From Balamuthia mandrillaris (taxonomy: Eukaryota), in NCBI GenBank assembly GCA_031835245.2, contig JAVKOQ020000002.1, forward strand, positions 558,001-622,000: a stretch of 64,000 nt of DNA. The letters are read 5' to 3'. Shown here piece by piece: positions 685 to 61,859 of this stretch (the stretch's first letter is position 1; each line of letters starts with the position of its first letter). Made by a program: the position numbers and the translations under genes. The notes beneath the pieces were generated by a model. It was not told where the DNA came from and did not search any database. It saw only the letters and a program-made list of their open reading frames with translations.

Positions 685-1678
685 TCCTCCTGTTATTCTT
701 GCTGACCTTTTTGCTGTAACGCTCTACCAATAGAATAGAAACGAAAGGGGGGCCTTCACCACCCTGCAAAGGTGAACCCATAGACATTCCTTGTACCTAT
801 CCGAAGCGTACAAAATAAAAGAAATGCGTCGGCAAAAATTAGAATTCAATATTCCCAATATGGGTGAAAAGAAATGGCAAGGGAAAAAGGGGGAGCAAAG
901 TTGTCCCTGCGCTTCCCTGCTAATAAATGCGAGGAACATTAGTGTCGACAAGGACGGCTGCCAAACCTAACCATTGCGCGTTGGTCATATTTCTATGAGA
1001 AAACGACATGGAGAATGGGCAACCCAACAGCGAAACAAAAGCGTGTGGCCAAGTGGGGGCCTCGTTTCCCGATGATCCCACACAACCGGGAGAGGAGAAG
1101 GGAGCCGCCTTCGCGCTACCTTGAGGCACGGAGGGCAGCAGAACGAAACGCTAGAGGATCCTCTCCATCTCTCCTCGTTTTTTGGAACTGACCCCATCCG
1201 CCAAGGGTGCTGCCCACACCTTCCAACAGGTTATGGGCCACTGCAAAGAAACAAGATTGCGTGATAACCATGGAGGTAGTGTTAATGTGAAGGATACATC
1301 TCGGCTGATGATGACTCTGTTAGTTATGGGAAGGAGGAAGGGGCACCTCAGAAGAAAAGACCTGTCTCATAAAAAATCCAAACCCTGCCGGGGGCTGGCA
1401 CACGCTTTCTTTCGTTAGAGCTGGTTCATTCTGCAAGCCTTTCTTCCTCCTCTTCTTTGAATTGAATGATGGTGGTTGGTATGCTCTCCTCCAAGGGCTG
1501 CCTCAGCTCTTCCTTCAGCTGGGAGTCCGGGCTTGGAATGTAAGTAGCTCTTGGGCAGGCTTTTGCCCCAAAGCTTCTGCTTGTCGCAATCTATAACTCG
1601 GGAGAACTGCATGTGGGAAGGCAAACATCTCGCCTGGACCTCCTCCTCCAAAGACCTTTTGCCACACCGAACGAACGA

Positions 1679-1716
<38 letters not shown>

Positions 1717-1774
1717 GGGCTGGCTCAAGAGAGGGACATCAAAATTTTTATTTACGACAAGAGCAAGCACAAAG

Positions 1775-3790
1775 ATGGAAGAAACGACGACCCAAGAGAC
1801 GTCGGCGGTGAGTGCCACCCTCTACGACCCGGAGCACCTCCGCCAACCGCAGACCGTCACGCTGGTCGGGGCGTTCCCCCACCAGGTGGCCGGGCACGGC
1901 GCCATCCTCAAGGCCAAAGGGCACAAGATTTGTAAACCGTTGTCCCCAAGGGAGGCATGGTTCTACCAAACCCTCAACAAGAGGCAGCCTTCTTCCTCTT
2001 CTTCTTCTTCTTCCAACACCTCTGCCTCTTCTTTCTCTCCTTTGCTGCGTTTCATCCCGGCGTGGTATGGGGCGTTTGAGATCTCGGCCGCTCAGCTGAA
2101 GAGGCTGGTGGTGGAGGAGGAGAGGCGGCGCCATAGCGCACAGCAGCACCAAGGGGAGGAGAGGGAAGGGGAGGGCGGCTTGGAGGTGCAGACCTGGGAC
2201 AGAAAAGTGTATCATCAGTTGGAGGAACAGATTGAGCGAGAGGTCATCTCCTCCCCAAAACATACTCACTGTACGATTTTTTTTTGTTCTAGTTCATCAT
2301 CCTCTTCTCGTCCTTGTCCTTGTCCTTGTCCTTGTCCTTGTCCTTGTCCTTGTCCTTGTCCTTGTCCTTGTCCTTGTCCTTGTTCTTCTTCTTCTTCTTC
2401 TTCTTCTTCTTCTTCTTCTTCTTCTTCTTCTTCTTCTTCTTCTTCTTCTTCTTCTTCTTGTTCTTGTTCTTGTTCTTCTTCTTCTTCTTCTTGTTCTTGT
2501 TCTTGTTCTTGTTCTTGTTCTTGTTCTTGTTCTTCTTCTTCTTCTTGTTCTTCTTCTTCTTCTTCTTCTTGTTCTTCTTGTTCTTCTTGTTCTTCTTCTT
2601 CTTCTTCTTCTTCTTCTTCTTCTTCTTCTTCTTCTGTTCTTCTTCTTCTTCTTCTTCTTCTTCTTCTTCTTGTTCTTCTTGTTCTTCTTCTTCTTGTTCT
2701 TGTTCTTCTTCTTCTCCTCCTTCTTCTTCCTCTTCCTCTTCTTCCTCCTCTTCTCTTAACTCATTTGTTCATGATAAACCAGCCTATATCGTGATGGAGA
2801 ACTTGACCGCACACTACAAGCACCCGTGTTTGATAGACATTAAGATGGGTACAAAGACGTGGGACGATGAGAGCCCAGAGCATAAACGCCTTATCGCTAT
2901 GGAGAAGGCAGCAAAGACCACCACCTGTTCTCTTGGGCTTCGCCTTTGTGGCATGCAGGTAATTCTTCTTATTTCATTCTTCGTTCTTCATTCTCGTCTC
3001 TTTGTTTATGTCTTTCGTTATTCTTCTTAATCATTCTTGTTCTTCTTTCTTCTTTCTTCTTGTTCTTCTTCGTTCTTGTTCTTGTTCTTGTTCTTGTTCT
3101 TGTTCTTGTTCTTGTTCTTGTTCTTGTTCTTGTTCTTGTTCTTGTTCTTGTTCTTGTTGTTGTTGTTGTTGTTCTTCTTCTTGTTCTTGTTCTTCTTGTT
3201 CTTCTTGTTCTTCTTCTTCTTCTTCTTCTTCTTCTTCTTCTTCTTCTTCTTCTTCTTCTTCTTCTTCTTCTTCTTCTTCTTCTTGTTCTTCTTCTCTTTT
3301 CTTCTTGTTCTTGTTCTTCTTCTTCTTGTTCTTCTTCTTCTTCTTCTTCTTCTTCTTCTTCGTCTCATTTTGTTTTTCTTAAAAATAGGTATGGCAGACA
3401 CAAGAGAAAGTGCTCAGAAAGATAAGCAAGTCAGAGGGACTTGACCTAACCCCAGAAACCATCGGAGCACATCTCTCCAAGTTCTTCCACAACGGAGAAC
3501 GACTTCGAACGGACGTCATCTCTGCGTTCACGAAAGAGGTAGAAGCATTGCTTCATACATTAGAAACCTGTCCGCCTCACCACAGGTTCAACATCTACTC
3601 CAGCTCATTGTTGTTTGTCTACGAAGGCGAGGAGAGACAAGAGGAAGAAGAAGACCAACCCCCAAAGGTAACAATGAAGATGATAGACTTTGTGCACGCG
3701 TTCAGGATCAACGACGAGAAACCAAATGATGATGGCTATGTATTTGGACTCCGCAACCTTTTGCAGCTGCTTCAACAACAACTGTTGTAA
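1775..3790 (+). CDS. Inositol polyphosphate kinase/multikinase (IPK family), 3 exons
   Basis: Exons 1775-2270, 2783-2958, 3389-3790 with GT-AG introns. Motifs HQVAGH, YIVMENLT, PCLIDIKMG (PxxxDxKxG), GLRLCGMQ, SSLL, MIDFVH. Confidence 0.93.
2312..2755 (+). repeat. Intronic (CCTTGT)n then (TTC)n/(TTCTTG)n microsatellite
   Basis: Directly visible inside IPK intron 1. Similar tracts at ~3035-3360, ~4770-5240, ~11590-11725 (AAG on + strand, minus-strand gene), ~40155-40240, ~49335-49405. Confidence 0.97.
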
Positions 3791-3892
3791 AGCGGAACTT
3801 TGTACAAAAGAGAGAGCTGCTCACCGTCGTCTGACAACGAGCCAAAATAGCTTGATTGCAAAATAAAAGGAAGAAGAAAACGAACAATAAAC

Positions 3893-5510
3893 ATGGATGG
3901 CTTCTTTCTGCCGGACGAGCTCTTTGCGCTGGTGTTGCAGGAGGTTCCTGCTGTTTCCGTGTTGACCTCCGTTGCACCCGTGTGCAAACTTTGGAAACGG
4001 CAAGCCACCGCCGAGTCTTTGGTAATGCTTTTTTAGTAAAACAAATACCAAGGAGTTCTTTGTTTCTTAATCGTTTGTTTAGTGGAAGCCAAAATGTGTC
4101 GCCAAGTGGGGGCACAGACCGCGTGCAGGAGGCGGAACGCTATGGCGTCACTGACTGGCTCTCTTACTTTTGCGAAAGGCGCGTTTTCACGCCCTTCCTT
4201 TGCTTCTTCTTCCCATTTTTCTCTTGCACGCATCTTATTCTCTTGCTCTTTCTCTCTTCTCTCTTCTCTCTTCTCTCTTCTCTCTGTGCTCTTCTCAAAC
4301 AGAGCTCACTTTGAAGCATTACCTCCGTTAAACCTGAGCTTTCTCGCAGCCGCTGACCCGTCTAGTTCCTCCGACCCGCCAGCCTCCACAGAGCTCCTCA
4401 GCGAGTTGAGCAATAAGAACGCCTTTGAGGTTGGGGCGCGGCTCTTCCAAGAGGGACAACTCGGGGAGGCCATTGAAGCACTAAAGGTGGAGGTCTTGCG
4501 CCACCCGATGAATCATAAGGCCTGGGCGATGCTGGCGAAAGCACATGAAGAAAACGATTGTGATAACTTGTTTGTTCTTCTCATTTTCGTGTTCTCTCTC
4601 TCTGCTGGCATTGATTAATACCAACGCACAACAAAAGGTCGATGGCGTGCAACTGTACGGCGGTCAGGATACAGCCAAGCAGCAGAGACGTTTTGTTGGG
4701 TATAGTTGTCGGCTGCATCAATGAAGCCCAAACTTATCTTGTTTGTACTTGCGCATCACACCTTTCTCTTGCTCTTCTTCTTCTTGTGCTTCTTCTTCTT
4801 CTTCTTCTTCTTCTTGTTTTTGTTTTTGTTCTTGTTCTTGTTCTTGTTCTTGTTCTTGTTCTTGTTCTTGTTCTTGTTCTTGTTCTTGTTCTTCTTCTTC
4901 TTCTTCTTCTTCTTCTTCTTCTTCTTGTTCTTGTTCTTGTTCTTCTTGTTCTTCTTCTTCTTCTTCTTCTTCTTCTTCTTCTTCTTCTTCTTCTTCTTCT
5001 TGTTCTTGTTCTTGTTCTTCTTGTTCTTGTTCTTCTTCTTCTTCTTCTTCTTGTTCTTCTTGTTCTTGTTCTTGTTCTTGTTTCTTCTTCTTCTTCTTCT
5101 TCTTCTTCTTCTTGTTCTTCTTCTTGTTCTTCTTCTTGTTCTTCTTCTTCTTCTTCTTCTTCTTCTTCTTCTTCTTCTTCTTCTTCTTCTTCTTCTTCTT
5201 CTTCTTCTTCTTCTTCTTCTTCTTCTTCTTCTTCTTCTTCTGCTGCTGCTGCTGCTCCAAACTTAAACAGCAACAAAACAAAACAAAGACTGGTTACTTT
5301 TTGGTGCTATGGCTGTTGCACTCCCCTTACAAGGCTCGCTTGGGGGACTTGGAGCCCTCCGACATTCCCTTGCAAGACGACATTCCATATAACATTTCAG
5401 ACGAGCTCTATTTCGACATGGAGCAAGCGTTTAAAGACATTATCAAGGAGCATCCCGATGACGTCGAAGTTAGAGTCATTTTAGGTTTGTTCTTCATTCT
5501 CTCTCTCTCT

Positions 5511-5552
<42 letters not shown>

Positions 5553-5909
5553 TTACTTTTTGTGATGGCTTTAACAGCATTGATGGAAATGGGTTCATGG
5601 AACTACGCAGGAGCTATTCCGCACCTTGAGCATGCCGTAAAGCATGATCCCACCAATCATGCCTTGTGGCATAAACTAGGTCAGTGCGAACACCACCACT
5701 TTAACTTTATTGTTTATTTGTTCTATTATTCTGCATTACATTAACGTCAAAATACAGGTGCAACACGAGCTAACGCTCAACTTCATCTTGATGCCTGTAC
5801 CACTGTTCTTCTTCTTGTTCTTATTCTTCTTCTTCTCCTCGTCTTCCTCTTCTCCTTCTTCGTGTTCCTCATCTTAATTGTCATGTTGTTCCTTGTTCAC
5901 CTTTCACTG

Positions 5910-5942
<33 letters not shown>

Positions 5943-6415
5943 TCTCTCTCTCGTTTTCACTCCTCACTCCTTATTTCTTTAACATTGAATGTAGGTCATG
6001 CGTACCAAGAAGCTCTGCATTTACGACCCAGGTATGTTCGCTGTATGAGCAACCTTGCCAAAGTGCACGTCAAGTTGAAAAGCCCACGAACAGCTGGCGC
6101 TTGGTGCACCTCTGCTCTCATGTAACCATTACCCTCATTTTGTTTTCTTTATGTTCTCTTTGCAGTTGTCTTCTTTCCTCACATTCACAAACAAACAATC
6201 ATCAACTACAAACAAGGATAAACCCCGAGGCAAAATGGATATGGGAGTACATTTCAATGATCGCCATACTGTACTCAAAGGACTCCACAGAACAAGCTGC
6301 TTTGCAACTGGCAATAAAACAGCGGGACGTTGCTTCCCTGCAAAAACATTTTCTTGAGGGGGAGAACGCACCTCCTCCCATCATTCCTCCGACTCACGTT
6401 CAGCTGGCCAACTGA
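3893..6415 (+). CDS. F-box + PEX5-like TPR protein (about 9 exons; one apparent 1-nt frameshift at G-run 4108-4112)
   Basis: Exon 1 MDGFFLPDELFALVLQEVPAVSVLTSVAPVCKLWKRQATAESL|W is an F-box. Spliced C-terminus AFEVGARLFQEGQL..AWAMLAKAHEEND..GCINEAQ..LWHKLGATRANA..YQEALHLRPRYVRCMSNLA..WIWEYI..RDVASLQKHF is colinear with the PEX5 TPR domain. Confidence 0.8.
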
Positions 6416-10324: not shown

Positions 10325-12481
10325 TCATTGCGAGGTCTCTTCTTCGCTTGAGCTACTGATGGAACCAGCCGGTTGGGAAGAAAGCGGGGTGACGTGTTTG
10401 CCTTCTATCTTTTTGGTGCCCGTGTTGTTGATGTTGGTGGGGAGGCTGTCTGACTTTCGCACAGAAAGCTTGTGGTTGACGAACAGATCTATCCAGAAAC
10501 GTTTCCAGAACTTCAAGTTGTCATGCGACAGAGTAAAGATAAGACTCACCCAAAACCCTTAAACAACAAAGAAAGAATATGAGAAAAATAGAAACGAAAA
10601 AGCAAAAAAAAAAAAAACAAAAAAAAACTTACCTCCAGAAACGTCAAAGAACAAAGCCAAATAAGTCAGAGGAAAGTTTGTGGTGGTTTCATAGTGGCAA
10701 CCAGCACCATCAGCTGCTGTTAATGAACAATTAATCCATTCTATCACAGTGTCTTTGACGTCGTCGAACTGAGAATGATTGTAAAAGCTGACCATGATCG
10801 GGAAGAGATAAAACGTGAGAACCGCCAACGTGACAGCGACTAAACGCCATTGTGCACGAAATGCAGTTTTGCCATTCGTCTTTTAACAGAAATGCATTCA
10901 TTAGAAAGAAATAAAAGAGGACGAAGAGGGTTAACTTACTTTAAACACTTTGAATAGAACAACGATTAAGATAAACGTTCCAACCATGAAAATGATACTC
11001 AATGGTATTGTATACAATCCAACCTCCCACCATGAATCCGATTCAACATTGATGTCCGCCTTACCGTTATAACAAAAACTCATTATAACCTTCGTTTGAT
11101 GCATGAAAATGAAAAGCAAGAAAGAGACTGACCTTCCAAGTACAAAAGAGTTCGCCATAGTTACCTCCGAGTTTGTCCACAGAGAGACCGATGATGACGA
11201 CCAAAGTGGGCAAACCCCAGCCAAATCCATGATGGAAGGCCAAACGCCACCACGGTATCACCAACTCTTGTGTCGTAACTATGATCAACATATTGATGCA
11301 GAGGTTCAACCACCACACCGCTGTTGCCCAGGTTGACCACACGAAGAATACAGCTGTTCACATCATTAAGAGACAATAATACATTAGAATCAGAAGAACG
11401 GAAGAACGGAAGAATAAAGACTACCAAAAGCTTCACAAGCAGGAGCCCCAAAGTCGAAACCAGCACCATCGGTTACACAATAGAAATCCTCCCATCCATA
11501 CAACGTCCCCCAACAAAGCGTAAATGCTGTCAACGTAAAACAAATTCCCAACCACGGAGTCTGAATGTTGAAGGACAACAGACGAATAAGGAGAAGAAGA
11601 AGAAGAAGAAGAAGAAAAAGAAAAAGAACAAGAACAAGAAAAAGAAAAAGAAAAAGAAAAAGAAAAAGAAAAAGAAAAAGAAGACGAAGAAGCAGAACAA
11701 GAAGCAGAACAAGAACAAGAAGAAGCCAAGAACAAGAGCGAAAACCGAGAAAAGCAAGACAAACCAGGTTGTTCCGAAAGTCACGGCGAGCAGGATTCAA
11801 AAACTGAGTCAGCAACAAAAACATGGTGGAAGCCAACGAGAACCAACAAAATACCGAGGCGGTCCCTATGAAAGCATCCCATTCCTTATCGGTATAAGAC
11901 ACATCCAAGCAAGGAAGATCGCAGTAGCCCTCAAACGTGACCAGTCCCTCTGGGCAAGCCACCAAAGGGAAAGAGCCGGTGTAAGGCAGAGCTGCGGTGC
12001 AAGGCTGGTCCATGGTGAACCATTCAGGCGGGCACTCGAACTCTGCGTCGTCGAAATCGGAGGTACAAGTGGAGGTTATGTCATCGCAGACGTAGGCGCA
12101 GATTTTCAGAGGGCCGGTCTGTGTTTCGTTGCATTGATAGTAACGGCTGCAAAGAGAACGAGCAACAACTGCTTGACATGGTGGCTTTGCGGAGGAAGAG
12201 AATTGAAACGCTATTCTGTAATGCATAATGCTGTTACCACAGAAGAAGAAAAAGCAGGAACAAAAAAGAGAAGAAGAGGCGTACTGCAGTTGTTCGTTTT
12301 GTAGGGCCAGTTGTCCTTCGGCTTCTTCCCAAACGGAGTAATTGACGTAGGGTTTGCAAAGGTCGATCACCACGGAGGGGTCGTGACAGGCCTGCGCATC
12401 CACGGGATGAACAACAAACCAGGCAGCGACGAGCAACCAAGGAAGGACCCCTGTGGCCCACCACGCGTTTGTCCCTGTCAT
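10325..12481 (-). CDS. Frizzled/Smoothened-like (class F) 7TM receptor with Cys-rich ectodomain
   Basis: Signal peptide, Cys-rich domain (C..LCKPYV..LCSRYYQC..ICAYVC..C), linker CPEGL..CDLPC, TM segments, WWLNLC, FHHGFGWGLP, C-terminal NLKFWKRFW resembling the Smoothened helix 8 pattern. Confidence 0.85.
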
Positions 12482-13005
12482 CTTTGTTCGGTTGTCCACA
12501 GTAGCTCCAAAATATCAAAAGGAAAAAGATTAGACGAAGAAAAAAACAAACCCAAGTAATCTTGTGATTGTTGTACAAAATTCCCCGAAGCATCCTGATT
12601 GGTTACCCGATAGTATTTAATTGCCCTTGATCACTCCGTAATTTACCCTATTGGCCAAAAAACAGGCTAAAAGCCCCATTTTAAAAAAATTGCCCCGCCC
12701 CGTTCGTCCAAGAGCACTACATTGGGGGTCCGGAGAAGGAGAGCGAAGAAAGGAGAGAACGGAGAACCACCCGGAACGAAGTACCCTTGTTGCCCGGAAG
12801 AATGGTATGAGTCGCCGATCAAACCTTGTTATAGAACAACACCCGTTTGCACGGTGGTTGTCCTTCGTTTTCATTGGTGCTTTCTTCTTCTTTTGCTGTT
12901 CGTTTCCTCGCGAATGGGGGAATTTGTTCGTACTGTTGGCAAGCAACAGCGTGAAATGATGGTAGAGAACAGAAGAAGAAATAAGAAAGCATACAACAAG
13001 GCAAT

Positions 13006-15018
13006 TTAATAGCTGGCACGCATTTTTCCGGTGATGGGGCAAACGTTGCCCATGCCTCGCGCGTGGTTGCTGTAGCGATCCACGTCGAGGGCCAATGCAC
13101 GAACGACAGCCCGTTCTTTGGGAGTCTCGTGGGAGGAAAGGTTTTTGTGGAGATAACGCTTGCACCACACTTTGACGGCCAACACATCTGCGGAATGTCC
13201 TTCGTCGTCTGTCCCTGCATCGACAGATAGGAGAGAAAAACCTTAGACACATAAAAGCAGAGAAAGTGCAACGAAAAGCAGGAAAGAGAAGAGAAGAGAA
13301 GAGAATGAAGATGGAACGAAAGCAGGAAAAAGAGTATCCCGAACCTCCATTGCCAGGCCATACAGCTTGGGCAATCAGCAAAGCAGCACAAAAGGTGCTC
13401 GACATGGCATAAGCCAAGTCCCTGGCATTGGACTCCGCAAAGGCGATGTCCCCCTCCTCATCCAACTTGTTCATCATCACATCCACAAACTTGAATATCT
13501 CATCTATGTTTTCCTCCACTTGTGTTGCGAACGGGCGAACTACTGGAAGAAGACGGGTGGACTGAAGACACTGCTGAATGACGTTCTTGAACTCATTCAA
13601 AGCACGAGGATACCTTTGCAACACCCGCAGAAGATCCAGCGAGAGCACGTTGGTTGTGCCCTCCCAAATGGTGTTGACTTGTTGATCCCTCAATCCGGCA
13701 GGGAGGTCGGTGGCGTCCTCCATATATCCTGCTCCTCCCAAGCACTCGAGGCACTCGCTGGCCACTTTCACTCCGTTCTTGGCCGTAAAGAGCTTCAACA
13801 GGGGAGTGAGCAAGCGAAGTACATCCTTATCCTCAGGCGAAGCTGTTCCCGCCTCCACGCGTCCTTGCAACATGGCCACATGGAATAAGAATTGCATGTT
13901 GCCGCGATAGAGCACGTCCAATTCAGCTAGTGTCTTGAGATGAAGAGGATGCTCTGCCAGCGGCTTGCCAAAGCTTCGTCGCCGATGAGCATAGTCCCTG
14001 GCTACAGCGATGCCCTTACGCATGGCAGAGGTAGAGCCTACAGCTGCCCATATCCTAGTCACGTTGAAGAGATCAGCAATAGTAGGGACACCACGACCCG
14101 GTCGTCCAATAAGATGAGCAGGAGTGCCGCACAACTCCAGCTCCGCGGTGGGCAAAGTCTTTGTGCCCAACTTCTCTTTCAGCCTATGAATCTTGATACG
14201 ATCTAATTTACCATCGTCCTTCCTCAGTTTGATGTAAAAGAGGGACAAGCCTTTGCTTCCAGGGACCGCCTTGTTGTTGTTGGTAGAGTCTTGGATGCGG
14301 GCAAGACCAAAGGCCACTTCGGAGAGCGTGGCGGAGGTGAAGTACTTGTATCCGTGTAGAAGATACATATCGGAGGGCGCATCGGGCGGAAGACCGACTT
14401 TAGTGGCAACCGTTTCGGTGTTACCCACGTCGGAGCCGCCCGTTCGTTCAGTCATCCATTGGCCGGACGTCCAGAAGACATTCTTGTCTCGGGAGGTAAG
14501 GTGCTCAAATACTTCTTGCAGAATTCCTGCTTTCTGTCCCGCACTATCATACCAGAGGGAGGAGAGAGAGAGAGAGAGAGATATCAACAAAACGATTAAG
14601 AAAGAATCACAATACAAAAATATCAAACCTAGGGTTCATAGCGGCACCAAAAAGCTCGCAAAGACGAGCAGCTCCATCAGTCATGGCGAGAGGGCAGGAA
14701 TATAAAGCCGAGTAAGGAGCAAACATATGAACCTTCGCTATCTGATGGACACGACTGTTTGAAAAAGTTAAAAAGATGAGGTTTAAAAAAAACAGGCACG
14801 AAGTGCAACAAAAAAAAGTTTTTAGGGGGAAACAAACCTCCACTCTCCATGACGACGCTCATAAGGGATGGCAATGAGGCCTTCCTCAGCAGAGACGTCG
14901 TTCAGGCGGAACCAACCCTCTCCAATTTGGATCTCATCCAAGCGCCTTTTAGTGCGTGTGTTTGGCGAGAGAGAAGTGCTTTCGGTTAGACCAACAGAAC
15001 GAGAGGAAAAGGAAGCAG

Positions 15019-15056
<38 letters not shown>

Positions 15057-15404
15057 AAGAGACCTTCCCCAACCGTCATAATTGACCAATTTTGGTGGAT
15101 ATCTGGTCACATTTTTGGCTGCGTGCAGTGAAGCATGGCCGCGTCAGCTTTGAACAGAAAACGACACCACAAAACCAACCACACACAAAAAAACGGAGGG
15201 AGGGAGGGGGGGGATAGGCAGATGCGTTTTACCATGGGCGGCGCACTCGTGGACCACTCTATCGCCAAAGCTTTGCAAATCGGGCTCTATCTTGTCGAGC
15301 ACCTCGGCAGGCACGATGCGTTGCAATATCTCGCGCAGCACATTGTCCTCCAGGTACTGGTTGCCCAAACGGGGTGGGTCTTGCAAGAAGCCCGGCACTT
15401 CCAT
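13006..15404 (-). CDS. AidB-like acyl-CoA dehydrogenase, multi-exon
   Basis: FLQDPPRLGNQY, SCPLAMTDGAA, TSGQWMTERTGGSDV, GYKYFTSA, RLKEKLGTKTLPTAELEL, ECLGGAGYMED, IWEGTTNVLSLD. Confidence 0.93.
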
Positions 15405-15576
15405 TTGGCTGCCTGCTTCGCTTTGCTTCGCTTTTCTTTTCTTGGATAAAATTCGCCGCGGAGGAATCCGAAGAATTAATTTGTCGACTATGATCTGGGT
15501 TGAGATGCGATCAATTTCAAAGCGCCAATCCACAATCAATTCAATGTACGCATTTATTTTCTTTTTTGTTTGTGCT

Positions 15577-17247
15577 TTACAAATCCTCATCGTAAATATC
15601 ATCACCATCATCATTGTCTTCATCCTCTTCGACTTCAACCGCAGCACCTGGACATCCGTTTTCCTCCAAGTACTCTAACATTTCGCTGGATTGTGCCTCA
15701 TTGTAAGCTCGCCGATTCCAGGGGCATCCGTTCTCATGCAACCATTCCATCACCTCCACTGAATCTCCTCTTGCTGCATAAACGCAAGTTTTCTCGTTGC
15801 AGGGGCATCCCTCCGTTTTGGCCCATTTCACCACGTCTAGGTGGCCGTTGGATGCGGCTGCATACAGTGTACATTCATCCCAAGGGCACCCGTGCTCGTG
15901 AGCCCACTGAAGCACTTGAAGGTTTCCATATTTTGCTGCTTCTACACAGGTGCGACTATCCCAAGGGCATCCCTGCTCTCGAGCCCATTGAAGCATTTCC
16001 AAATTGTTGTTTGCTGCTGCCACTTCGCACACCATCTTGTTGCAGGGACAGCCGTTCTCATGAGCCCACTTGAGCAGCTCAAAGTGACCATGGCGGGCCG
16101 CTATAACAGACGTATTCTCATCCCACGGACAGCCGTTCTTGTGAGCCCACTTGAGCACATGCAGAAGATTGTGCTTTGCCGCCTCCTCGCAGACCTGCTT
16201 GTTCCAAGGACAGCCATTCTCCCGAACCCATTGCAGAGCTTCTAAGTTACCGAGAGAAGCCAGAGAGATGCACGTGCTTTCGTCCCAGGGGCATCCTGTC
16301 TTTTCACGAAGCCATTGAAGCAACTGCAGCTGTCCTTCAGCAGCAGCAGCGGCGCACACCCGTTCATTAAAGAAGCTCTTCTCTCTGTCATTGCGGGCAG
16401 CCCACTCCAAAAACTCACGGTCTTCACGCAGAATTGCCTGCTTGCACATTGCTAAACCATCCGCAGGATATCCGTTCATGAATGCCCACTTGTGCATTTC
16501 CCACACTTCTCTGTTCTTCTCATACTTGTTGTTCGGCCTCGCTATGGGCATCCAGAGGCCACGGTGCCATGAAAGGCCATTCTCACGAGCCCATTTCAGA
16601 ACGTGCACGTTTGGTGCATGTGCACACACACCCCAGTCCAAAGGAATGCCCTGTTCATGAGCCCACTTTAAGACGTGCAGGTGTCCATGCTGGGAGGCGG
16701 TCCATCCGATGGCCTGGCTCATGCTTTCATCCCAGCACGAGGGGCTAACCATGCTGCGCAGCTTTTGCAAAAGGGCGAGGTCCCCTCTCCTTGCCGCGGC
16801 CATGAGAAGTTTGCGGGTCTGACCTTGCACGCCCATTGGACTTCCGTTCTTCAGCGCCCATAGAAACATCTCGGTGGAGTCATGCATCAGGCTGACATTC
16901 AACTTTCTTCGCTTCTCTGCTGAAACGCGATTGAAGAGGTGTTTGTTTACTCTGGCCAAAACCGGGAGATACTTGGGAGGCATGTACTCCAACATCAGGT
17001 CTAACAGTTCCAACGAGCAATCCTCAAAAGAGTTCTGACGTTCGCTAGCGGAGAGTTTGTGTGGGAGCTCCTTCTGTTGAGTGGCATCGGTATGTATCTC
17101 CTCTTCCTTCTTCGTAACCGTTGTAGTAATCGTGCTGGTCCTACGTTTCTTCATTGGCGCCCTTGTCTTATCCTCTTCATTTTGTTCGTTGAGCGGCGCC
17201 TCCTGCTCTTCGTTGCTGTCGTTCTCGCCACGACCCTTGCATTCCAT
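15577..17247 (-). CDS. Intronless F-box-like + ankyrin-type repeat protein (giant-virus/amoeba GCPW family)
   Basis: F-box-like FEDCSLELLDLMLEYMPPKYLPVLARVNKHL, then about ten ~25-aa repeats AA..G.L..LKWA.ENGCPW and an acidic tail. Confidence 0.88.
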   Translation of the reverse strand: MECKGRGENDSNEEQEAPLNEQNEEDKTRAPMKKRRTSTITTTVTKKEEEIHTDATQQKELPHKLSASERQNSFEDCSLELLDLMLEYMPPKYLPVLARVNKHLFNRVSAEKRRKLNVSLMHDSTEMFLWALKNGSPMGVQGQTRKLLMAAARRGDLALLQKLRSMVSPSCWDESMSQAIGWTASQHGHLHVLKWAHEQGIPLDWGVCAHAPNVHVLKWARENGLSWHRGLWMPIARPNNKYEKNREVWEMHKWAFMNGYPADGLAMCKQAILREDREFLEWAARNDREKSFFNERVCAAAAAEGQLQLLQWLREKTGCPWDESTCISLASLGNLEALQWVRENGCPWNKQVCEEAAKHNLLHVLKWAHKNGCPWDENTSVIAARHGHFELLKWAHENGCPCNKMVCEVAAANNNLEMLQWAREQGCPWDSRTCVEAAKYGNLQVLQWAHEHGCPWDECTLYAAASNGHLDVVKWAKTEGCPCNEKTCVYAARGDSVEVMEWLHENGCPWNRRAYNEAQSSEMLEYLEENGCPGAAVEVEEDEDNDDGDDIYDEDL

Positions 17248-17612
17248 CTCTGCTGCGTGCGTCAAGGAAAGAAAAGCGCTTCTTGAGCCAGAGGGGAACG
17301 ACGTGCTCAAACGGAGGCAACGTAGCAGAAGAAGAAAAAGAAGCGGCAGAAAAAAAAAAGAAGAAGAAGACAGAGGTCTGGGAGGCGTGCCAACCCCGTA
17401 ACGATCTGTCTTTCGCGTCGTCCCTGTTTTCTTTTGGGCTTCTCTTCGGTCTACACTAATTAAAAACATGCAGTCAGCAGATCATCCTACGAGCATAATA
17501 GGCTGTTTGGCGCCCAAAACCGTATTTTCCGTAATCCCACACAAACAAAAGGGGGAAGCGAACTTTGCCTCTAACGGTAACAAAAAAAAAAATAAGGGGA
17601 GAAGCAATAGGA

Positions 17613-20600
17613 ATGAAAGAGCGCAGAAGAAAGCGGAAGCGTTCCTCTGGTACTTCGCGGCAGCCCAAAACGCGTAGCGACGATGGTGCCAGCTCGTCTT
17701 CGTCGGCAACTTCCTGTGTAGAACTCGGCGGTAGGTTGATGTTCGTTGCGTAAACTCGGCACGGTCAAAGAGAGAGAGAGAGAGAGAGAGTTTTTGAGGG
17801 AGGAGAGAGTGATTTGTTTTACGAACCTTTCTTTTTTTTGTTTTGTTTTGTTTTTAACCACGCACGCTGAACTAGCAGAGAAGGAAACGGCCGAGCGTCT
17901 TGCAACAACACCGGAAACGAGTTTGTTGCAGTCACCCAACAAAAAGCAAAAACGAGAGCTTTCTGGTCAGGAAGAGCTTATGAAGCTTCGTGTATGGGAT
18001 CTGAAAGCGCAGCTACGAGCGTTGAAGCAAAGTACGACCGGTAAGAAGGAGCAGCTTGTGCAACGCCTTCTCGCTTGTCAGCAAGCTGACAAATTGGAGA
18101 ATGAGGAAGAAGAAAGCGAAAAGCAAGAACAAACAAAAGAAAAGGAAGAGATGGTGAAAGCCAACGAGGAAGAGAGCGATGAAACAAAGGCAGCACAAAA
18201 GAAAGTCAAAGAAGGCAATGGGAGGATGGATGAGGACAAGAAAGACGAAGAGCGGATGGAGGAGGAAGAAGAAAATAACCAAGAAGAAAGGAGAAAAGAA
18301 CAAACATATGAGGAAACGCGAGAGAAAGAAGCGACAGAGGACGTAGCCAAGAAACTTGGAAATACTGAAGAGCAGCAGCAAGAACACACGAACGATACAC
18401 AACATCACCTTGAAGAAAAAGAAGAACGCGAAACAAAAGATGAACCAACGACATCCAAGAAAGAAGCAAACTCACACGACCCAAACGGAAAGGATAACAC
18501 ACAAGCGCTGCAGCATACACCAACGCGGAAGAAGGGTGCACAAGGCCGTTTGAAGAAGAGAGTCAGTGAACCTGTTTTGATCGAAGATGGAGAAGAGCCA
18601 CTGGAAGGCAGTTGGCTCAGTTGCGACAAATGTGACAAATGGATCTACGCTCCTGATGACAACATCAAGGATATTTGGATATACGATGACAACAATCCCA
18701 ACCACGAGGAATACTATTGCGCTTCTTGTCGTCGGGAAGGAGAGAGAGCACAGAATGAGCAGAAGGTAGAGGAGGCATCAACAGAGAATACGGTGAACAA
18801 AGAAGTGACAGAGCGACATGGAGAGGCTTCCACTCGAAAAGATCAATTGGAAGTACCACCTATTTGTCTCTCGTTGTCCCCGAATGTCTCACCCAAAGAT
18901 GACACTCCTTCTGTGTTCTCTTCTCTCAACGTACGAAAGAAACGCCGAAGAAGACGAAGCAGCTACAGCACACCAAGAAAGAAATCCTCCAAAACAAAAC
19001 GCTGCTCACTCAGTCCCTCCAAAGAAAAAGAAAGAGAAATAGAAACAAAGGGAATGAAAGAACAAGAAGCAACAAAAGGAGAAGAGGAAGAAAGAAAAGA
19101 ATCGCATGAGAATGACGTAGCCGAAAAAGCAGAAGACATGGAAAACGGAGCAGATGAAGAAAACGAAGAAGCAACCATCCAAGTGTTGCCCGTAAGTGCT
19201 GAAGAGCTCAACAAAGAGCTAAGCTTTGTCTTCATGCCCACAAAACCTTCTGCCGAGGAGCTGCGAGGTCAACAATTTCGGTTTAGAGTCGGCCACGCTA
19301 CCTGCAAAGGAGGCAGAAATGAAAACCAGGACGCTTATATCGTACCCAACAAAGCCAGCGTAAAGCGTGGAGACATGCCTGTGTTTGCCGTGCTAGATGG
19401 GCATGGCATTCGTGGCAAGCCTGCCGCCATGGAAAGCGCCAGCATTATTGCTTCCACTATTGTCAGTCATTATAGAGAGAAGAAGAGGATGAGCAAGCCG
19501 AAGAAGGAACAGCAAAACAGAAAAGTAGAACGTGCTGCGGCCCAACCAAGCGAAACTTCTGGTCTGGATGATCATTTATCTTCTCTTGCAAATGCGGGGC
19601 AGAGAATAACTCGCAACAAAGCAAAAGCTGCTGGGTGTTCTACTTCGGCAAAGAACACAACCAATGGACAAACCTCAAACGAACCAACTTCATCTTCTTC
19701 ATCATCCTCTTCTATTTCTTCTACTACTTCTAATGATCCAGAAGAAGAGCTTCGCAAATGCATTCAAGAAAGTCTCGGCGCAGCTAATCAACGGCTGTTA
19801 CAACGAATGGAAAGAAGCGGCGAAGAATACGGCACAACTTGCGTGTTGGCTGTAGTCATGAGTTCTCGTCTCGTTCTGGCAAACGTAGGTGATTCCAGAG
19901 GCATTCTCTTTCGGACTCGTAAAGTAGGAAGATCGATGTCTCAACAACTTGTTCTCGCTTCTACCGACCATCGTCCTGCTGATGCTAATGAACGGTACTG
20001 CCATTGTTTTTTATTCTTTTTTTCTTTACTTGTTTGTTTACTTTTCGTCTCATGTTCTTTGTGCTTTCTATTTCTGTTTTTGTGACTTCTAATTTTTTGA
20101 TTAAAAAAATTAACTTCGCGTCTTGATTTAAACAAAGACAACGGATAGAAGGCTGTGGAGGTCGAGTAAAACCAAGTCGCGTAGTTGGCTATCGAGTGTA
20201 TCCAAAGGAAGGAGACTTTACTGTCGAAGAGGCCTCGCAGAAGCAGCTGGGTCTCGCCATGTCTCGCTCCCTTGGTCACCTCATTCTCAGCCGCTATGGC
20301 GTCTCACCCGAGCCTGAGTTCTTCACCGCTGATTTGGAAGACGGAGACAAACTTGTGCTTGCATGCGATGGGGTATCTATCACGCCTGCTTTCTTCTTCT
20401 CCTCCTCTTCCTTGTCTTCTGTATTGTAACAAGCAGTTTGTTGATGCATTCAACTGAAGATATGGGATGTATTGAGCACGGAGGACGTAATGCATTTGGT
20501 GAATTTGTATGCAGGCCAAGATCCGCAGCAGGCATGCCGGGCGCTGGTCACAGAGGCAGAGAGACGGTGGAAGAAAAAGGGATCGAGAGCAGACAACATG

Positions 20601-25830: not shown

Positions 25831-27237
25831 TCACTGCTTCTTCTGCTTGCCATATTTCAGGATAGTGTCTTGACTGGCAGGACAAGGCGGCTCTGCTTCC
25901 TCCAACATCCACTGCAACATCTCCCAACGGGCTAACTGGAGGGCCTTGTGACTAGTGCTCTCATCCCAAGGACACGGCGGATCCGCTTCCTCCCTCATCC
26001 ATCGAAGCAGCTGCAAGTTATTCGCAGAGATAGCAGCATTGCATGTGTCCACTCCCCAAGGAAACTCCACCTCTAAACGAAGATACCGCAGTGTCTCCAA
26101 GTGACCACCTTGAGCGGCGGCTGTGCAAATGGCGGTCGGTTGAAAGAAGCAGTCCTCCACCAGGTCTGCTCCCTTTTGTTGGTACAACCAACGAAGCACC
26201 TCCGTGTGACCCCTCTCCGCTGCGAATCCGGCTGCAAAGGAGCTCCATGGACAGCCGTTGGCATACACCCATTTCAGCAAGTGCAAATGGCCAGCAGAGG
26301 CTGCCGTGTCGAAGGCCTGCCACTGGTCCAACTCTCCGCCATGAGCCAGCAGCCATTGCACCATGTTCAAGTCGCCAGCTTCCACCGCCTGGGAACAAGC
26401 GTACGTGTCGCCCTCCTTGACACGAGCGCCGAGGCTGTACATCCACTCGACCACGTCGAGGCGGCCACCCTGCGCTGCGCACGAGTACAGGTAGTCGTCT
26501 TTGGTGAGGTCGTAGCCTTTCTCTTCCACTGCCCACCGAAGAACGTGAAAGTGTCCTTTCCTGGCCGCGTGCCTGGTCAATAGCAACATGCTCACTTCCA
26601 ACTTCTCTCCCTGCTGTTTCCTTTGGAGCTCCTCTGCTTGTTCTTTCATCCATTGCAACACCCCCAGCTGCCCACCAGAGGCAGCGCAGGCGACCGTGTG
26701 TATACGCAGCACCTGAGCAAGGTCATTGAGGTCGCAGGCCACCCAACGGAGGACGTGGATGTGACCGGCCGCGGCTGCCGTCCAGCAGGTCTCCTCATAA
26801 ATGCCGGGCCGTTGGTGCTCGGGGACGCTGCGATAGGCCCATTGCAAAACAGCCAAGTGACCTCCTCTTGCCGCTTCCTTCATGATCTTCTTGAAGTCAG
26901 GGAGAGCTGGTCGAAAAGAGGCTTTGTCGTGGGTCAGCTCCTGCAACAAGTCCAAACGACCGGTGGAGGCGGCCGCCAGGTGGAGGTCCTTTGCGGAGAG
27001 CAAGCCGTTGTCGGTGGCCCACTCCCACAGTTTGGTTTTGCGCTCGCCGTCAGCCTGGCTCGGTGCGTTACCGCCTGGGCTGAAGGAGAGAAAGAACCTC
27101 GCCCCTAGCCGCTTCCGGTGGTGCGGGGGGATGCAGTCACGCCAGCTGTGACAAACTTGGGCCACCAACCCGGCAAGACCGGCAGGCAGCAACTCTTGGA
27201 GGATAAAGCAGAGCAGCTCGTTCGGAAGGTCGTCCAT
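25831..27237 (-). CDS. Intronless F-box + ankyrin-type repeat protein
   Basis: MDDLPNELLCFILQELL..VAQVCHSWR F-box, then repeated AAxGGHLxVLxW / CPW units. Confidence 0.88.
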   Translation of the reverse strand: MDDLPNELLCFILQELLPAGLAGLVAQVCHSWRDCIPPHHRKRLGARFFLSFSPGGNAPSQADGERKTKLWEWATDNGLLSAKDLHLAAASTGRLDLLQELTHDKASFRPALPDFKKIMKEAARGGHLAVLQWAYRSVPEHQRPGIYEETCWTAAAAGHIHVLRWVACDLNDLAQVLRIHTVACAASGGQLGVLQWMKEQAEELQRKQQGEKLEVSMLLLTRHAARKGHFHVLRWAVEEKGYDLTKDDYLYSCAAQGGRLDVVEWMYSLGARVKEGDTYACSQAVEAGDLNMVQWLLAHGGELDQWQAFDTAASAGHLHLLKWVYANGCPWSSFAAGFAAERGHTEVLRWLYQQKGADLVEDCFFQPTAICTAAAQGGHLETLRYLRLEVEFPWGVDTCNAAISANNLQLLRWMREEADPPCPWDESTSHKALQLARWEMLQWMLEEAEPPCPASQDTILKYGKQKKQ

Positions 27238-27512
27238 CAAGGCGGTGCTTTGCCTCAAAAAAAAAAACTGTGGAGGACCGTCGTCGTGTGGAGTTTGTAA
27301 AGGAAAAAAAGAGTAGGCAGAAGAAGCAGGCTGATCCTGGTGTAGAAAACACAAAGCGGCCACGGGAAGGAGACCTTGCAGCTGTTCCAACGCTATTGCG
27401 GCTTACAAGCTGCGTCTTGGAAGAGCTGCAAGGCCTCCTTCTCATGCATACATCTTGTGAGCCCTTCAGTGTAGGGGCTTTGACTTTCCCTGCTCATTCT
27501 CTTGGATCCTTT

Positions 27513-57484: not shown

Positions 57485-60400
57485 TTAGGAGGTCTGCATA
57501 TAACCAGCCACTCTGTAATTCATGAAAGAGGGGCGTTAGAAGATACAAGGGAGGTGGCGCAGAGAAGGAAGAAGGAGTGCTTACTGGTTTTGTCGCTGAG
57601 TGGAATCAATAGCCTCCTTTTTCAAAGTTCGATAATAGTTGTCAAGACTTTCACTAAGTTCTTCAGCAGTTGGTCTAAACAATAAACATAACGATAAGTG
57701 TTGTCCACATTTTGAACAAAAAGTTATACAAAGAAACACAAGGAACAAACCGAAGTTTTGGATCCGATTGCCAGCACCGTTCCAACAGGTCTTTTATTAC
57801 CTCATCTTCGTTCTCTTTGATGGGCAAACGCTCGCCTATTTCATTGAAAATAAATGCACTGTATTTAGCACCACCAAAGACCCCGAAGTGAGGTCAGGTC
57901 TCACCTTCGTAAAGAACTTTGTTAACGACGTAATTGACGTCTTTGCCTTCCCATGGCTGTTGTCTTGTGCAAAGTTCCCATAAAAATACACCAAACGAAA
58001 AGCTGTCTGTTTCTTTGCTGTATTTCTGGTCCTTAAATGCTTCTGGTGCCATCCACTATAAAATTTTTTCATGTTGTTAGTTTTGCAGGAGGGGAGAGAA
58101 AGAAATCGAGAGAGAGCGAAACAATGGAGACAAAAGAAAACAATAATAATTACCCTAACAGCGCCAACATTGCTTTTGGTGATTTGGTACATTTTCTCCA
58201 ACACACGCGACATGCCAAAGTCTCCTAAAACTGCTCTGAAATTGTGACACACCAACACGTTCCTTGCTGCTATGTCTGTTCGTCCATTCCGTTTCACCAT
58301 TGTGAGAATAAAAGAATCTGAAAAGCAAGGAAAGGAAAGGGTAAGAAGTTTTCTAACCCCGATGAACCACGTTCAGTGAATGAAGATAACGAAGGCCTCT
58401 GGCAGCATTACGAGCAATCTTGACAATGGCTAGCCATGAAACATCATCTTGCTTTTTGTTTGGGTTAATCAACAGGTCATAGGCCGACCCGTGCTCAGCC
58501 CATTCTGTGACGAGACACATGCGTTTGCCTTTGCGCATCACTCCATACAATGTTGTACAGTAATTCTCTTTGCCTCCCAATTCGCTGGTCGAAGGGACAA
58601 CAAAGAAAGAAATAGAAAGAAAAACAAGAAGAACAAAGACAGGAGGTCAGTAAGCATTTTTAAAAAAAGTTTAACAAGACGTACTGCATTATTTCTGCTT
58701 CTCGAATGAATTCGTCACGAAGTTGTTGATCCACGACAATAGCGCTGCATACCTTCACTGCACAGTCCTTTCCTTTCCACTTGCCTTTGTACACAACTCC
58801 GAAAGCTCCACTAGCAACTGGTTCTTTGACGTATTCCACATCCTTTCTTCGTAGCCTTGGAACTGGTCCATCATAATAATCTTCTTCCTGTTCTTCTTCA
58901 TCATCATTTTCGTCATCTTCGTTGTTGCGATTTGTTGACTGTAGATATATTCCTTCTTCCACATCTTTGTCGTTCTTTTTCAGGTTCTGCTTTCTTTTGT
59001 TGCGCCTGACAATAAAGAAAGCTGCAGCACCGATCAAAAGAAGGAGCAATAAGACCACGGTGAGAGAAACGACTACTGGAATCACAACTGTATTATCATT
59101 TGACTCTGAATCTTCCCTACCAGCTGCTGAAGAAGAGGAAGAAGAGGAAGAAGAAGAATCAACGTTGACAACTGTAAGGACAGCCTCCAAGAACTTGCGA
59201 TTCCTTTGCAGTGATGCTTCTATCCTTATTGGAAGTTGTTTCTTCGTCTTGTCGTTGCTGTTGGTGTTGCTGGTTGGTGAGATTACTTCAACGACAACAG
59301 TTTCGATGGGACAATCAGAAGTCAGGTTCACGCTCTGTCGATCTTCAAAGATGAGAGGGAGTGCTGCTTCGGGTGGTGGAATGTCTTCTAAGTTCGAGAA
59401 ATCGAGCTGCAGAATACCTATGTCCCTCGAAGTAAGCAAAACAAAATTTTGTTTTCAACCAAATAGATATACTAAAGAAAACGAAAAGAAAAGTAAGCGA
59501 TCCAGCAAACATACCATGCAACGAAGCACATCCTTCCACATATAAGAAAGCCTCTGAGCGAACAATAGTCGACCCGACCACAAATTCTATCCTTCCACCC
59601 TCGGTCAAGTTCACTGATCCTTGCACCGCAACTCCTGTTTCTCCTTCTATTCTCCAAACCTCATCCTCCTCAATGGTAACGCTAGAATAAAGCAGCCATC
59701 TCTCCACCACACATCTCCCTCCTCTCTCCAACACGAAAGCAAGGAATTCGGCACTGCCGTGTCCATCATCGCATTCTCCGCTTGTGTGTAAGTTGCTCGC
59801 AAAGACAACAACCGCACCAGGTGAAGGTCCCGTTTGATCGATGATACCGGTAGGGCCAGGATAACCGTTTGTGACGCCATAAGTATCGCCACTGTCGAAA
59901 GGAGCTCCAGCTGCGATGATGCCTCCATGATAGGCCACAGATTGCCCCATATAAGCAGGATTATTTACGCTATTTGATGCTTTCATCAAAGCCACGTACT
60001 CCCAATCTGCACCCTCTTCCCGTTGATAAAGATAAGCGCCACCAGTGTTCTCATCGACCAAGCACACTTCTTCAAAGGTTACTCCTGGTTGAGTGGTTCC
60101 TTCGGAAGGAGCTCCGCATATGATGACATCGTCTTGCAGTGCCACCGCTCCGCAAAATCTGACGTCACAGTCTGTCGTAGCATTAGTCGACAGTTGTTCA
60201 GTGCGCCACTCTTGCGTTGCCCCTCTGACAAATATCCATGCGAGTTCGTTGGCAGTGCTGTATTCGTGAACGCCGGTCGTTACTACGGCAGTATTGTTGC
60301 TCAAAGCCACTTTATAGCCAAACGGTCTGTCAGCGCATGATCGAGGCTTCAAAAAGGCTTCTTGTCGCCATTCCACTTCGTTCGTTTCGCCTTGCTTTTG

Positions 60401-61528: not shown

Positions 61529-61859
61529 GCTGTTGTTTGAATAACGAGGCTCTGCGTATGGTTTGTTGCAGCGAGCAGGGGGCGCTGAGGGTAATGAAAT
61601 GATTCATTAGCGAAACGAAATGAATAGCTTGCTCCATAATACAAATCGGAAAACGTGTCTGCTACGCGCATCTTCCTCCACTCCCGTCGCCACTCCCCCT
61701 GCGTTCTCTCCAAAATGGGAGTTTTTTTCTTAACTTAAGCCCAAGATCCAAACTTTCAAACCATCAATCCGCAATCAAAGCCAGAGATCAGAATGTCCAC
61801 AAAAAGTCCTTTTTCATGTCGTCCTGAACGCAGGAGGACACACAAAAACGAAGAAAGAA

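What the first reader, a model, noticed from the sequence alone, without database searches (positions are those of the whole stretch)
3893..6415. F-box fused to a full PEX5-type TPR domain: candidate SCF adaptor reading C-terminal (PTS1-like) degrons
Seen: exon 1 encodes an F-box (LPDELFALVLQEV..VAPVCKLWK..LW) that the ORF track misses. The downstream exons rebuild the whole PEX5 cargo-binding domain, but the long N-terminal PEX5 region with WxxxF/Y repeats is absent. Known: PEX5 TPRs clamp a free C-terminal SKL tripeptide via conserved Asn/Arg residues, and F-boxes recruit SKP1-CUL1. Here the equivalents of human N415 (INE), N534 (ATRAN), R557 (VRC) and N561 (SNL) look retained, while N526 (LWNKLG) is His (LWHKLG). 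Inference: an import receptor repurposed as a ubiquitin-ligase substrate receptor, for example for quality control of mislocalised peroxisomal proteins or a new C-degron pathway. I know of no described protein with this architecture. Caveat: the join needs one G removed from GGGGG at 4108-4112 and a GC-AG intron at 4179-4302.
Basis: partly seen in the sequence, partly recalled or inferred. Interest (0 to 1): 0.88.

Follow-up and report, generated by a model that had tools for sequence, protein, structure and literature searches.

The report
F-box fused to PEX5 cargo domain
An amoeba has joined an F-box (a tag that normally recruits the protein-destruction machinery) to the cargo-gripping domain of the peroxisome import receptor PEX5, which likely makes an adaptor that marks proteins for destruction by their last few amino acids, although the copy in this window is broken by a real one-base insertion that other copies lack.

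Summary
The fusion is real; this copy is a natural null. A nine-exon gene (3893-6415) joins an SKP2-like F-box to a complete PEX5 TPR domain. Public-run contigs show introns 1-3 spliced, including the GC-AG intron, and the exon 4-5 join. The extra G is not an assembly error: it stands in two studies and stops this haplotype at 66 residues. A second haplotype in the same sample lacks it, as probably do two other samples. The label Balamuthia mandrillaris comes from annotated proteins. A paralog (KAL6047931.1, 52% identical) has the same F-box-linker-TPR layout, a Pfam-grade F-box and all five core PTS1 contacts. A published table lists a separate canonical PEX5. The window's gene evolved about five times faster than the paralog and carries N526H and I564K, yet variants show purifying selection (pN/pS about 0.35), and a model seats a C-terminal ARL in its pocket (0.76 vs 0.03, possibly from memory). 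No F-box-PEX5 protein was seen outside this species; no paper or earlier scan finding describes it. Best reading: an SCF receptor for PTS1-like C-termini; SKP1 binding, substrates and degradation are untested.

The parts
3893..4021 (+). Exon 1: start codon and F-box motif (43 codons)
   Evidence: Pfam F-box-like E=4.4e-4; SKP2 F-box alignment; 24 of 41 identical to the paralog's F-box
4022..4082 (+). Intron 1, GT-AG, 61 nt; also retained in several contigs
   Evidence: Joint 'skips 61, GT..AG' in X3 and X9; unspliced contigs in X3, X4, X9
4083..4178 (+). Exon 2: end of the F-box and a conserved helix (DWLSYF); holds the G run
   Evidence: 16 of 31 identical to the paralog in the open frame; open frame scores 248 vs 197 and 148 for two frameshift-free splice models
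4108..4112 (+). Five-G run: natural one-base insertion that breaks this haplotype (stop after 66 residues)
   Evidence: Five G in X1, X3, X4, X9 contigs with 0 differences; one base fewer in the second X1 haplotype (table 4) and in the X9 loose end; inferred one fewer in X6 and X11
4179..4302 (+). Intron 2, GC-AG, 124 nt
   Evidence: Joint skipping 124 in X3, X4, X9; the second haplotype's joint in X9, depth 23.7
4303..4569 (+). Exon 3: linker, TPR1, TPR2 start
   Evidence: Joint 4569-4638 in X3, loose ends in X4, X9; PEX5 alignment
4638..4740 (+). Exon 4: TPR2-TPR3 with the N415 equivalent
   Evidence: Loose end at 4740 in X3 continues with the first letters of exon 5
4741..5288 (+). Intron 4 with a long CTT/GTT microsatellite
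   Evidence: Sequence; GT-AG ends
5289..5484 (+). Exon 5: end of TPR3, TPR4 hinge, start of TPR5
   Evidence: Matches annotated protein P0002
5578..5679 (+). Exon 6: TPR5-TPR6 start, with His at the N526 position
   Evidence: splicing not tested with reads
5758..5796 (+). Exon 7 (39 nt): A530, T531, N534 equivalents
   Evidence: splicing not tested with reads
5995..6121 (+). Exon 8: TPR6-TPR7 with R557, N561 equivalents and I564K
   Evidence: splicing not tested with reads
6217..6415 (+). Exon 9: PEX5-type C-terminal helices and stop codon
   Evidence: splicing not tested with reads

Best explanation
This gene is one of at least two paralogs in this amoeba that join an N-terminal F-box to the whole cargo-binding TPR domain of PEX5, and the intact protein likely acts as an SCF ubiquitin-ligase receptor that grips a free PTS1-like C-terminus and would send that protein to the proteasome instead of the peroxisome. 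Shown: the exon structure and splicing of introns 1-3; an open 418-codon frame when read across the G run; a second paralog of the same layout; loss of the long PEX5 N-terminus; a real null insertion in this haplotype. Inferred: a PEX5 duplicate swapped its import N-terminus for an F-box, then duplicated again; the F-box binds SKP1; the TPR ring clamps a C-terminal tripeptide; substrates are cytosolic proteins with PTS1-like ends (most simply, peroxisomal enzymes that were not imported or are being cleared). The window's paralog has a remodelled pocket (N526H, I564K) and probably binds more weakly or reads a shifted motif; it can be lost from one haplotype.
For: Paralog P0003: F-box-like 40.1 bits against a cut-off of 24.3, then TPRs; aligns end to end with the window model over residues 4-413; F-box 59%, TPR1-3 63%, TPR5-7 62% identical, hinge only 25%, so the F-box is as conserved as the TPRs. 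Paralog keeps N415, N526, N534, R557, N561 and 37 of 41 columns that are at least 90% conserved in 146 PEX5 rows; its model matches PEX5-PTS1 structures best (1fch E=1.3e-15; TPR pLDDT mostly above 85). Splicing and open haplotypes. Variants between haplotypes in exons 1-4: 17 non-synonymous and 14 synonymous on 460 and 134 sites, binomial p=0.004. A separate, far more PEX5-like gene is listed for the species (PMC7549135 supplementary table 5). Complex model of the window's TPR domain with a 34-residue probe ending in ARL: score 0.76, best of 3 controls 0.03; the mark was reached by 51 of 78 solved and 2 of 108 mismatched pairs; runs share at least 55% of contacts, partner pLDDT 42-46; the tripeptide sits on N187, H290, K291, A294, N298, R321, N325. 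This pass may come from memory of solved PEX5-PTS1 complexes, and peptides were not calibrated. F-box C-degron receptors exist (Das1, FBXO31).
Against: The window's haplotype is a null and the five-G form is in two studies. N526 is Asn in all 159 other PEX5-like rows checked and N526K prevents cargo binding in human PEX5 (PMC7693011 passage). This gene keeps only 29 (A) or 28 (B) of the 41 conserved columns, and its branch is 0.71 against 0.14 for the paralog. Exon 1 alone is under the Pfam cut-off, and the paralog's modelled F-box has pLDDT only 42-59. No single listed contig spans F-box to TPR, and intron 1 is often retained. Degrading PTS1 proteins would compete with import, so a different substrate class is plausible.
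Confidence: 0.55

Rival explanations
1. Only the paralog is a working C-terminus reader; the window's gene is a decaying or re-purposed duplicate whose TPR domain no longer binds PTS1-like ends and serves, if at all, as a generic scaffold in an expanded F-box repertoire.
For: N526H, I564K, S412G and 12-13 of 41 conserved columns lost; fivefold longer branch; null insertion in this haplotype; another F-box-ankyrin ORF in the same window shows that F-box shuffling is common here.
Against: pN/pS about 0.35, p=0.004; N415, K527, A530, N534, R557, N561 all kept although the domain is only about 62% identical to the paralog; both haplotypes are spliced at intron 2; other samples appear open.
Confidence: 0.25
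2. The proteins act at the peroxisome rather than on stray cytosolic cargo: they dock on the import machinery through the single WxxxF-like helix (and, in the paralog's annotation, a KPWE-type segment) and regulate or ubiquitinate import components, or compete with PEX5 for cargo.
For: WLSYF/WLAYF kept in both paralogs; the paralog's annotation continues into a PEX14-like KPWE domain (44.3 bits), a motif class that binds PEX7 (PMC12339391 abstract).
Against: The W..Y/F helix also fits the usual extension after an F-box (recalled pattern, not tested); the 952-residue annotation also carries an unrelated PhzF domain and may be a merge of neighbouring genes; its motif reads KPWQ; no such segment follows the window's gene (tblastn).
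Confidence: 0.1
3. The substrates are foreign: the adaptors read C-termini of giant-virus or endosymbiont proteins as a cell-autonomous defence, which would explain fast divergence and allele loss.
For: Long stem (1.78) and unequal paralog rates; a segregating null allele.
Against: Variants show purifying, not diversifying, selection; no direct link to infection was found.
Confidence: 0.07
4. The fusion is an artefact: an orphan F-box fragment lies next to a truncated PEX5 copy.
For: Both annotated proteins for this locus lack the F-box; no single listed contig spans both parts.
Against: Joints for introns 1 and 2; the paralog was annotated with the same F-box-linker-TPR order and matches exon 2 in the open frame.
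Confidence: 0.03

Closest known systems
PEX5, PTS1 import receptor (human 1fch, 2c0m; trypanosome 3cvq)
   Same: Whole TPR cargo domain with C-terminal helices; N415, K527, N534, R557, N561 equivalents.
   Different: No long N-terminal region with repeated WxxxF/Y motifs; an F-box in its place; about 30% identity; N526H and I564K in this gene; long separate branch.
TRIP8b / PEX5-related protein (PDB 4eqf)
   Same: A PEX5 TPR domain re-used to bind the C-terminus of a non-peroxisomal protein, HCN2 (entry title; sequence match E=6.5e-14).
   Different: Channel accessory subunit with no F-box (recalled).
SCF-Das1 (yeast) and SCF-FBXO31 (human), F-box receptors of C-degrons
   Same: F-box adaptor that reads a substrate's C-terminus; Das1 does orphan quality control (passages).
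   Different: Other reader folds (FBXO31 calycin barrel; Das1 not PEX5-like, recalled); no PTS1 link in the passages seen.
TPR-type C-degron ligases CRL2-APPBP2 and CHIP
   Same: TPR groove reads a C-terminal degron (table in PMC9098119).
   Different: Cullin-2 or U-box, not F-box/SKP1; TPRs not derived from PEX5 (recalled).
Yeast Dia2 (TPR-F-box-LRR; recalled, no call)
   Same: F-box and TPR in one chain.
   Different: TPR lies before the F-box, is not PEX5-type, and the LRR is the substrate reader.
B. mandrillaris KAL6047931.1 (P0003), annotated only as a PhzF-family protein
   Same: Same F-box-linker-PEX5 TPR layout over its first 418 residues, 52% identical.
   Different: Keeps N526 and I564; the annotation runs on into KPWE and PhzF domains, possibly a gene merge.

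Membership tests
F-box proteins (SCF substrate receptors) | F-box motif reaching the family profile | tested here: inconclusive
   Window exon 1 alone 20.4 bits against a cut-off of 24.3 (the motif continues into exon 2); the paralog passes with 40.1 bits; 59% identity between the two.
F-box proteins (SCF substrate receptors) | N-terminal F-box in one chain with a C-terminal binding domain | tested here: met
   Joints for introns 1-3; end-to-end alignment with the paralog. Met for open haplotypes, not for the window's own haplotype.
F-box proteins (SCF substrate receptors) | Binds SKP1 and assembles on CUL1 | not testable with these tools
Canonical PEX5 | C-terminal TPR ring plus C-terminal helices | tested here: met
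   fold of the paralog.
Canonical PEX5 | Long N-terminal region with repeated WxxxF/Y motifs | tested here: not met
   About 112 residues before TPR1, of which 44 are F-box; one WxxxF match only. Many, not all, PEX5 rows show several.
Canonical PEX5 | PTS1 contacts N415, N526, N534, R557, N561 | tested here: not met
   Four of five in this gene (N526H); five of five in the paralog.
Canonical PEX5 | Carries cargo into peroxisomes | not testable with these tools
   A separate, more PEX5-like gene is listed for the species.
C-degron E3 receptors (Das1, FBXO31, APPBP2, CHIP) | Pocket that holds a free C-terminus | tested here: inconclusive
   Model seats C-terminal ARL in the pocket, 0.76 vs 0.03, but may reflect solved PEX5 complexes.
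C-degron E3 receptors (Das1, FBXO31, APPBP2, CHIP) | Binding leads to ubiquitination and turnover of the substrate | not testable with these tools
   No data.

The most novel reading that the evidence does not exclude
This amoeba has turned the peroxisomal import receptor into a small family of ubiquitin-ligase receptors, so that the same C-terminal code (SKL-like) means 'import' to PEX5 and 'destroy' to its F-box paralogs; the paralog with Asn526 reads canonical PTS1, the window's His526 gene reads a shifted motif, and the paralog may also reach the PTS2 pathway through a KPWE-type segment.
Probability: 0.3. Interest if true: 0.88.

Novelty: new variant of a known kind. Interest (0 to 1): 0.66.

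Why it matters
A targeting signal doubling as a degron, read by a ligase built from the import receptor itself, would be a new way to police peroxisomal proteins left in the cytosol and a clean natural case of a receptor changing jobs by domain swap. Two paralogs that differ at the key Asn, plus a natural null allele, make the idea directly testable. It also shows that the current annotation hides this gene's F-box because of a GC-AG intron.

Tried and rejected
No whole genome is held, so canonical PEX5, SKP1, further paralogs and the DNA of the second haplotype and of P0003 could not be read directly. No RNA holder listed among 20 runs; the two raw RNA runs laid gave 2 and 0 reads from 3-5% of each run, too few to use. 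Assembly error at the G run: rejected. Frameshift-free splice models (donor 4036 or 4106): score lower against the paralog (197, 148 vs 248) and no such joint was listed. Genomic retrocopy as the source of the joints: unlikely, since X1 shows none while X9 of the same sample does. Word-based searches: 1 hit of 337 candidates, 1 of 2691, 66 of 7384 with no F-box family listed on any. Representative search: only the best 150 of 6031 hits were seen; the paralog's F-box found no other among 229 stored proteins. Metagenome contig scan: 582 pattern matches, none confirmed. Atlas: hits all under 0.9, PEX5 clusters first, no cluster listed with F-box and TPR together; it covers only clusters of 50 or more. 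The tree does not place the clade next to any PEX5 group (long stem, few labelled rows), so the donor PEX5 is not identified. The row labelled E381 is really A380 and was not used; the 'False' identity flag came from one extra codon after the stop. Paper search was uninformative. An unfiltered per-site recount did not run; one search covered the N526 question only.

Full report
Observation. The sequence holds a nine-exon gene on the + strand: 3893-4021, 4083-4178, 4303-4569, 4638-4740, 5289-5484, 5578-5679, 5758-5796, 5995-6121, 6217-6415; seven introns are GT-AG and intron 2 is GC-AG. Exon 1 hits Pfam F-box-like at E=4.4e-4 (20.4 bits, cut-off 24.3) and aligns with the SKP2 F-box. From exon 3 on, the model reads the same as annotated protein P0002; a second annotated protein, P0001, differs at 20 of 344 residues. 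Both are labelled Balamuthia mandrillaris and both lack the F-box. The best natural PDB matches are PEX5 TPR domains (E=5e-20 to 9e-20).

Splicing. Eight of 20 listed runs were laid. None of the holders is on record as RNA, but X3, X4 and X9 (two studies) give contigs joined at the predicted sites: intron 1 in X3 and X9; intron 2 (GC-AG) in X3, X4 and X9; intron 3 in X3, with loose ends in X4 and X9; the exon 4-5 join as a loose end in X3. X1, from the same sample as X9, and X6 and X11 show no joints, so I read X3, X4 and X9 as RNA-derived (inference). In X9 the second haplotype is shown spliced at intron 2 (depth 23.7). Its splicing at intron 1 is inferred: its contig begins at the acceptor G, as the first haplotype's does, and a second contig with its letters covers 4007-4009 but not 4036.

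The G run. It is not an assembly error. X1 has a contig over 3977-4230 with no difference from the window (depth 51.7), and X3, X4 and X9 agree. As it stands this haplotype stops after 66 residues. X1 also has a second haplotype (depth 39.7) with one base left out at 4108, and the X9 loose end at 4109 shows the same. In X6 a near-identical haplotype covers 361 window bases with 360 letters and one gap in bin 4095-4119; in X11 all four pieces break at 4109-4111. I read both as four G (inference). So the insertion looks recent and limited to one haplotype in 2 of 4 samples. Read across it, the frame is 418 codons.

A paralog settles the architecture. The representative search (6031 hits, best 150 seen) returned P0003, KAL6047931.1 of the same species, 52% identical. 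Its first 418 residues are F-box (40.1 bits, over cut-off), linker and TPRs, and align end to end with the window model, including exon 2 in the open frame. Identity is 59% in the F-box, 52% in exon 2, 63% and 62% in the two TPR triplets and 25% in the hinge. Its AlphaFold model has a confident TPR domain and a low-confidence three-helix F-box (pLDDT 42-59), and matches PEX5-PTS1 structures best. In a tree of 149 TPR domains the three F-box rows form one side of a branch (SH-aLRT 100, stem 1.78); 80 of 229 stored proteins were left out (non-PEX5 TPRs, redundant cluster members, rows failing a motif or length filter). After the duplication this gene's branch is 0.71, the paralog's 0.14. The donor PEX5 is not resolved.

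The pocket. Numbering was read from the human 2c0m alignment. The paralog keeps N415, N526, K527, N534, R557, N561, I564 and 37 of 41 columns at least 90% conserved in 146 PEX5 rows; the window's gene keeps 29 (A) and 28 (B), with N526H, I564K and S412G (rows were pre-filtered to N or H at 526). Without that filter, position 526 is Asn in 145 other rows with the motif and in 14 of 14 PEX5-like rows without it; four long non-PEX5 rows were left out. N415 and N526 bind the cargo carboxylate (PMC9328179, one passage) and N526K prevents binding (PMC7693011, passages); the effect of His is unknown. A complex model of P0002 residues 100-400 with a 34-residue window frame ending in ARL (a probe, not a gene) scored 0.76 against a best control of 0.03 (mark reached by 51 of 78 solved and 2 of 108 mismatched pairs; at least 55% shared contacts; partner pLDDT 42-46), with the last three residues on N187, H290, K291, A294, N298, R321, N325 and the Arg near D155 and D157. 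Like complexes are solved, so this shows likeness, not binding.

Selection. The variants listed for the second haplotype type in exons 1-4 are 17 non-synonymous and 14 synonymous on 460 and 134 sites (pN/pS about 0.35, p=0.004). The list is incomplete and pools runs, so this is a rough sign of constraint.

Canonical PEX5. PMC7549135 (passages and supplementary rows) lists a B. mandrillaris PEX5 at 52% identity and 66% coverage to the Acanthamoeba protein (E=3e-126; human E=1e-53), far closer than this gene's roughly 30% over the TPR domain. I take it to be a different gene (inference; I could not read its DNA), so the fusions are spare paralogs.

Mechanism. Most likely a PEX5 copy exchanged its import N-terminus for an F-box and now hands proteins with PTS1-like ends to SCF (0.55). 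Rivals: this copy is decaying and only the paralog reads C-termini (0.25); action at the import machinery through the WxxxF-like helix and the paralog's KPWE segment (0.10); defence against foreign proteins (0.07); artefact (0.03). SKP1 binding, substrates and turnover are all inferred.

What is known. F-box C-degron receptors (Das1, bioRxiv 2023.08.13.553125, passages; FBXO31) and TPR C-degron readers (APPBP2, CHIP) are described (PMC9098119, passages), and TRIP8b re-uses a PEX5 domain. I found no description of an F-box-PEX5 protein: 0 papers for F-box + PEX5 + Balamuthia, 0 for C-degron + F-box + TPR + PTS1, 2 unrelated by title and abstract for PEX5 + F-box protein + Skp1 + PTS1 + tetratricopeptide, listings only; the Dictyostelium F-box survey PMC9485057 has no occurrence of TPR or PEX5 in its main text (its supplements were not read and may bear on this). 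The library lacks most subscription journals. No such protein was seen outside this species, within those searches' limits. Earlier scan findings hold nothing on this gene; one note supplied the KPWE/PEX39 lead (PMC12339391 abstract).

Verdict. Observation confirmed, with the correction that this haplotype is a true null. It is not a canonical PEX5; it is probably an F-box receptor; it would work like a C-degron ligase. The architecture appears undescribed and so far confined to one species. New variant of a known kind; interest 0.66.

Noticed in passing
P0003 (KAL6047931.1) residues 480-526 and 602-947: The paralog's annotation continues from the PEX5 TPR domain into a PEX14-like KPWE domain (motif reads KPWQ) and a PhzF domain. 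Either a real longer fusion or a merge with neighbours; a peroxin-type segment directly behind a PEX5-derived gene would be a notable coincidence.
   Followed up: partly
window 4022-4082: Intron 1 is retained in contigs of X3, X4 and X9 (both haplotypes in X9) that come from runs with spliced joints elsewhere; retention would cut the protein right after the F-box. Possible regulation or pre-mRNA.
   Followed up: partly
P0001, P0002: Both annotated proteins for this locus start inside exon 2 in the wrong frame and read through the GC-AG intron, so the F-box is missed.
   Followed up: yes
window 3870-4750: Two or more haplotypes about 5-9% apart occur within single samples (X1 depths 52 and 40; X11 about 58 and 36), annotated on different contigs; allele or recent duplicate not resolved.
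   Followed up: partly
window 25834-27402 (-): F-box-like plus ankyrin-repeat ORF (F-box 27.4 bits).
   Followed up: no
window 15580-17481 (-): Long single-frame ankyrin-repeat ORF with an F-box-like stretch by eye before the repeats; resembles giant-virus-type ankyrin proteins (recalled).
   Followed up: no
window about 1600-3790 (+): Inositol polyphosphate kinase gene (IPK) ends about 100 bases before the F-box start codon.
   Followed up: no
window 17740-20082 (+): ORF with a weak SAP domain and a PP2C phosphatase domain.
   Followed up: no
window 57839-61603 (-): FG-GAP repeats followed by kinase pieces, a possible receptor kinase.
   Followed up: no
window 11393-12514 (-): Signal peptide, cysteine-rich region and hydrophobic helices, Frizzled/Smoothened-like by eye; no Pfam hit at 1e-4.
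   Followed up: no
window 12620-15674 (-): ACAD11-like acyl-CoA dehydrogenase; its apparent C-terminus ends in ASY, not a canonical PTS1.
   Followed up: partly
window 6165: A strong in-frame alternative acceptor in intron 8 would add 17 residues before the C-terminal helices; use not tested.
   Followed up: no
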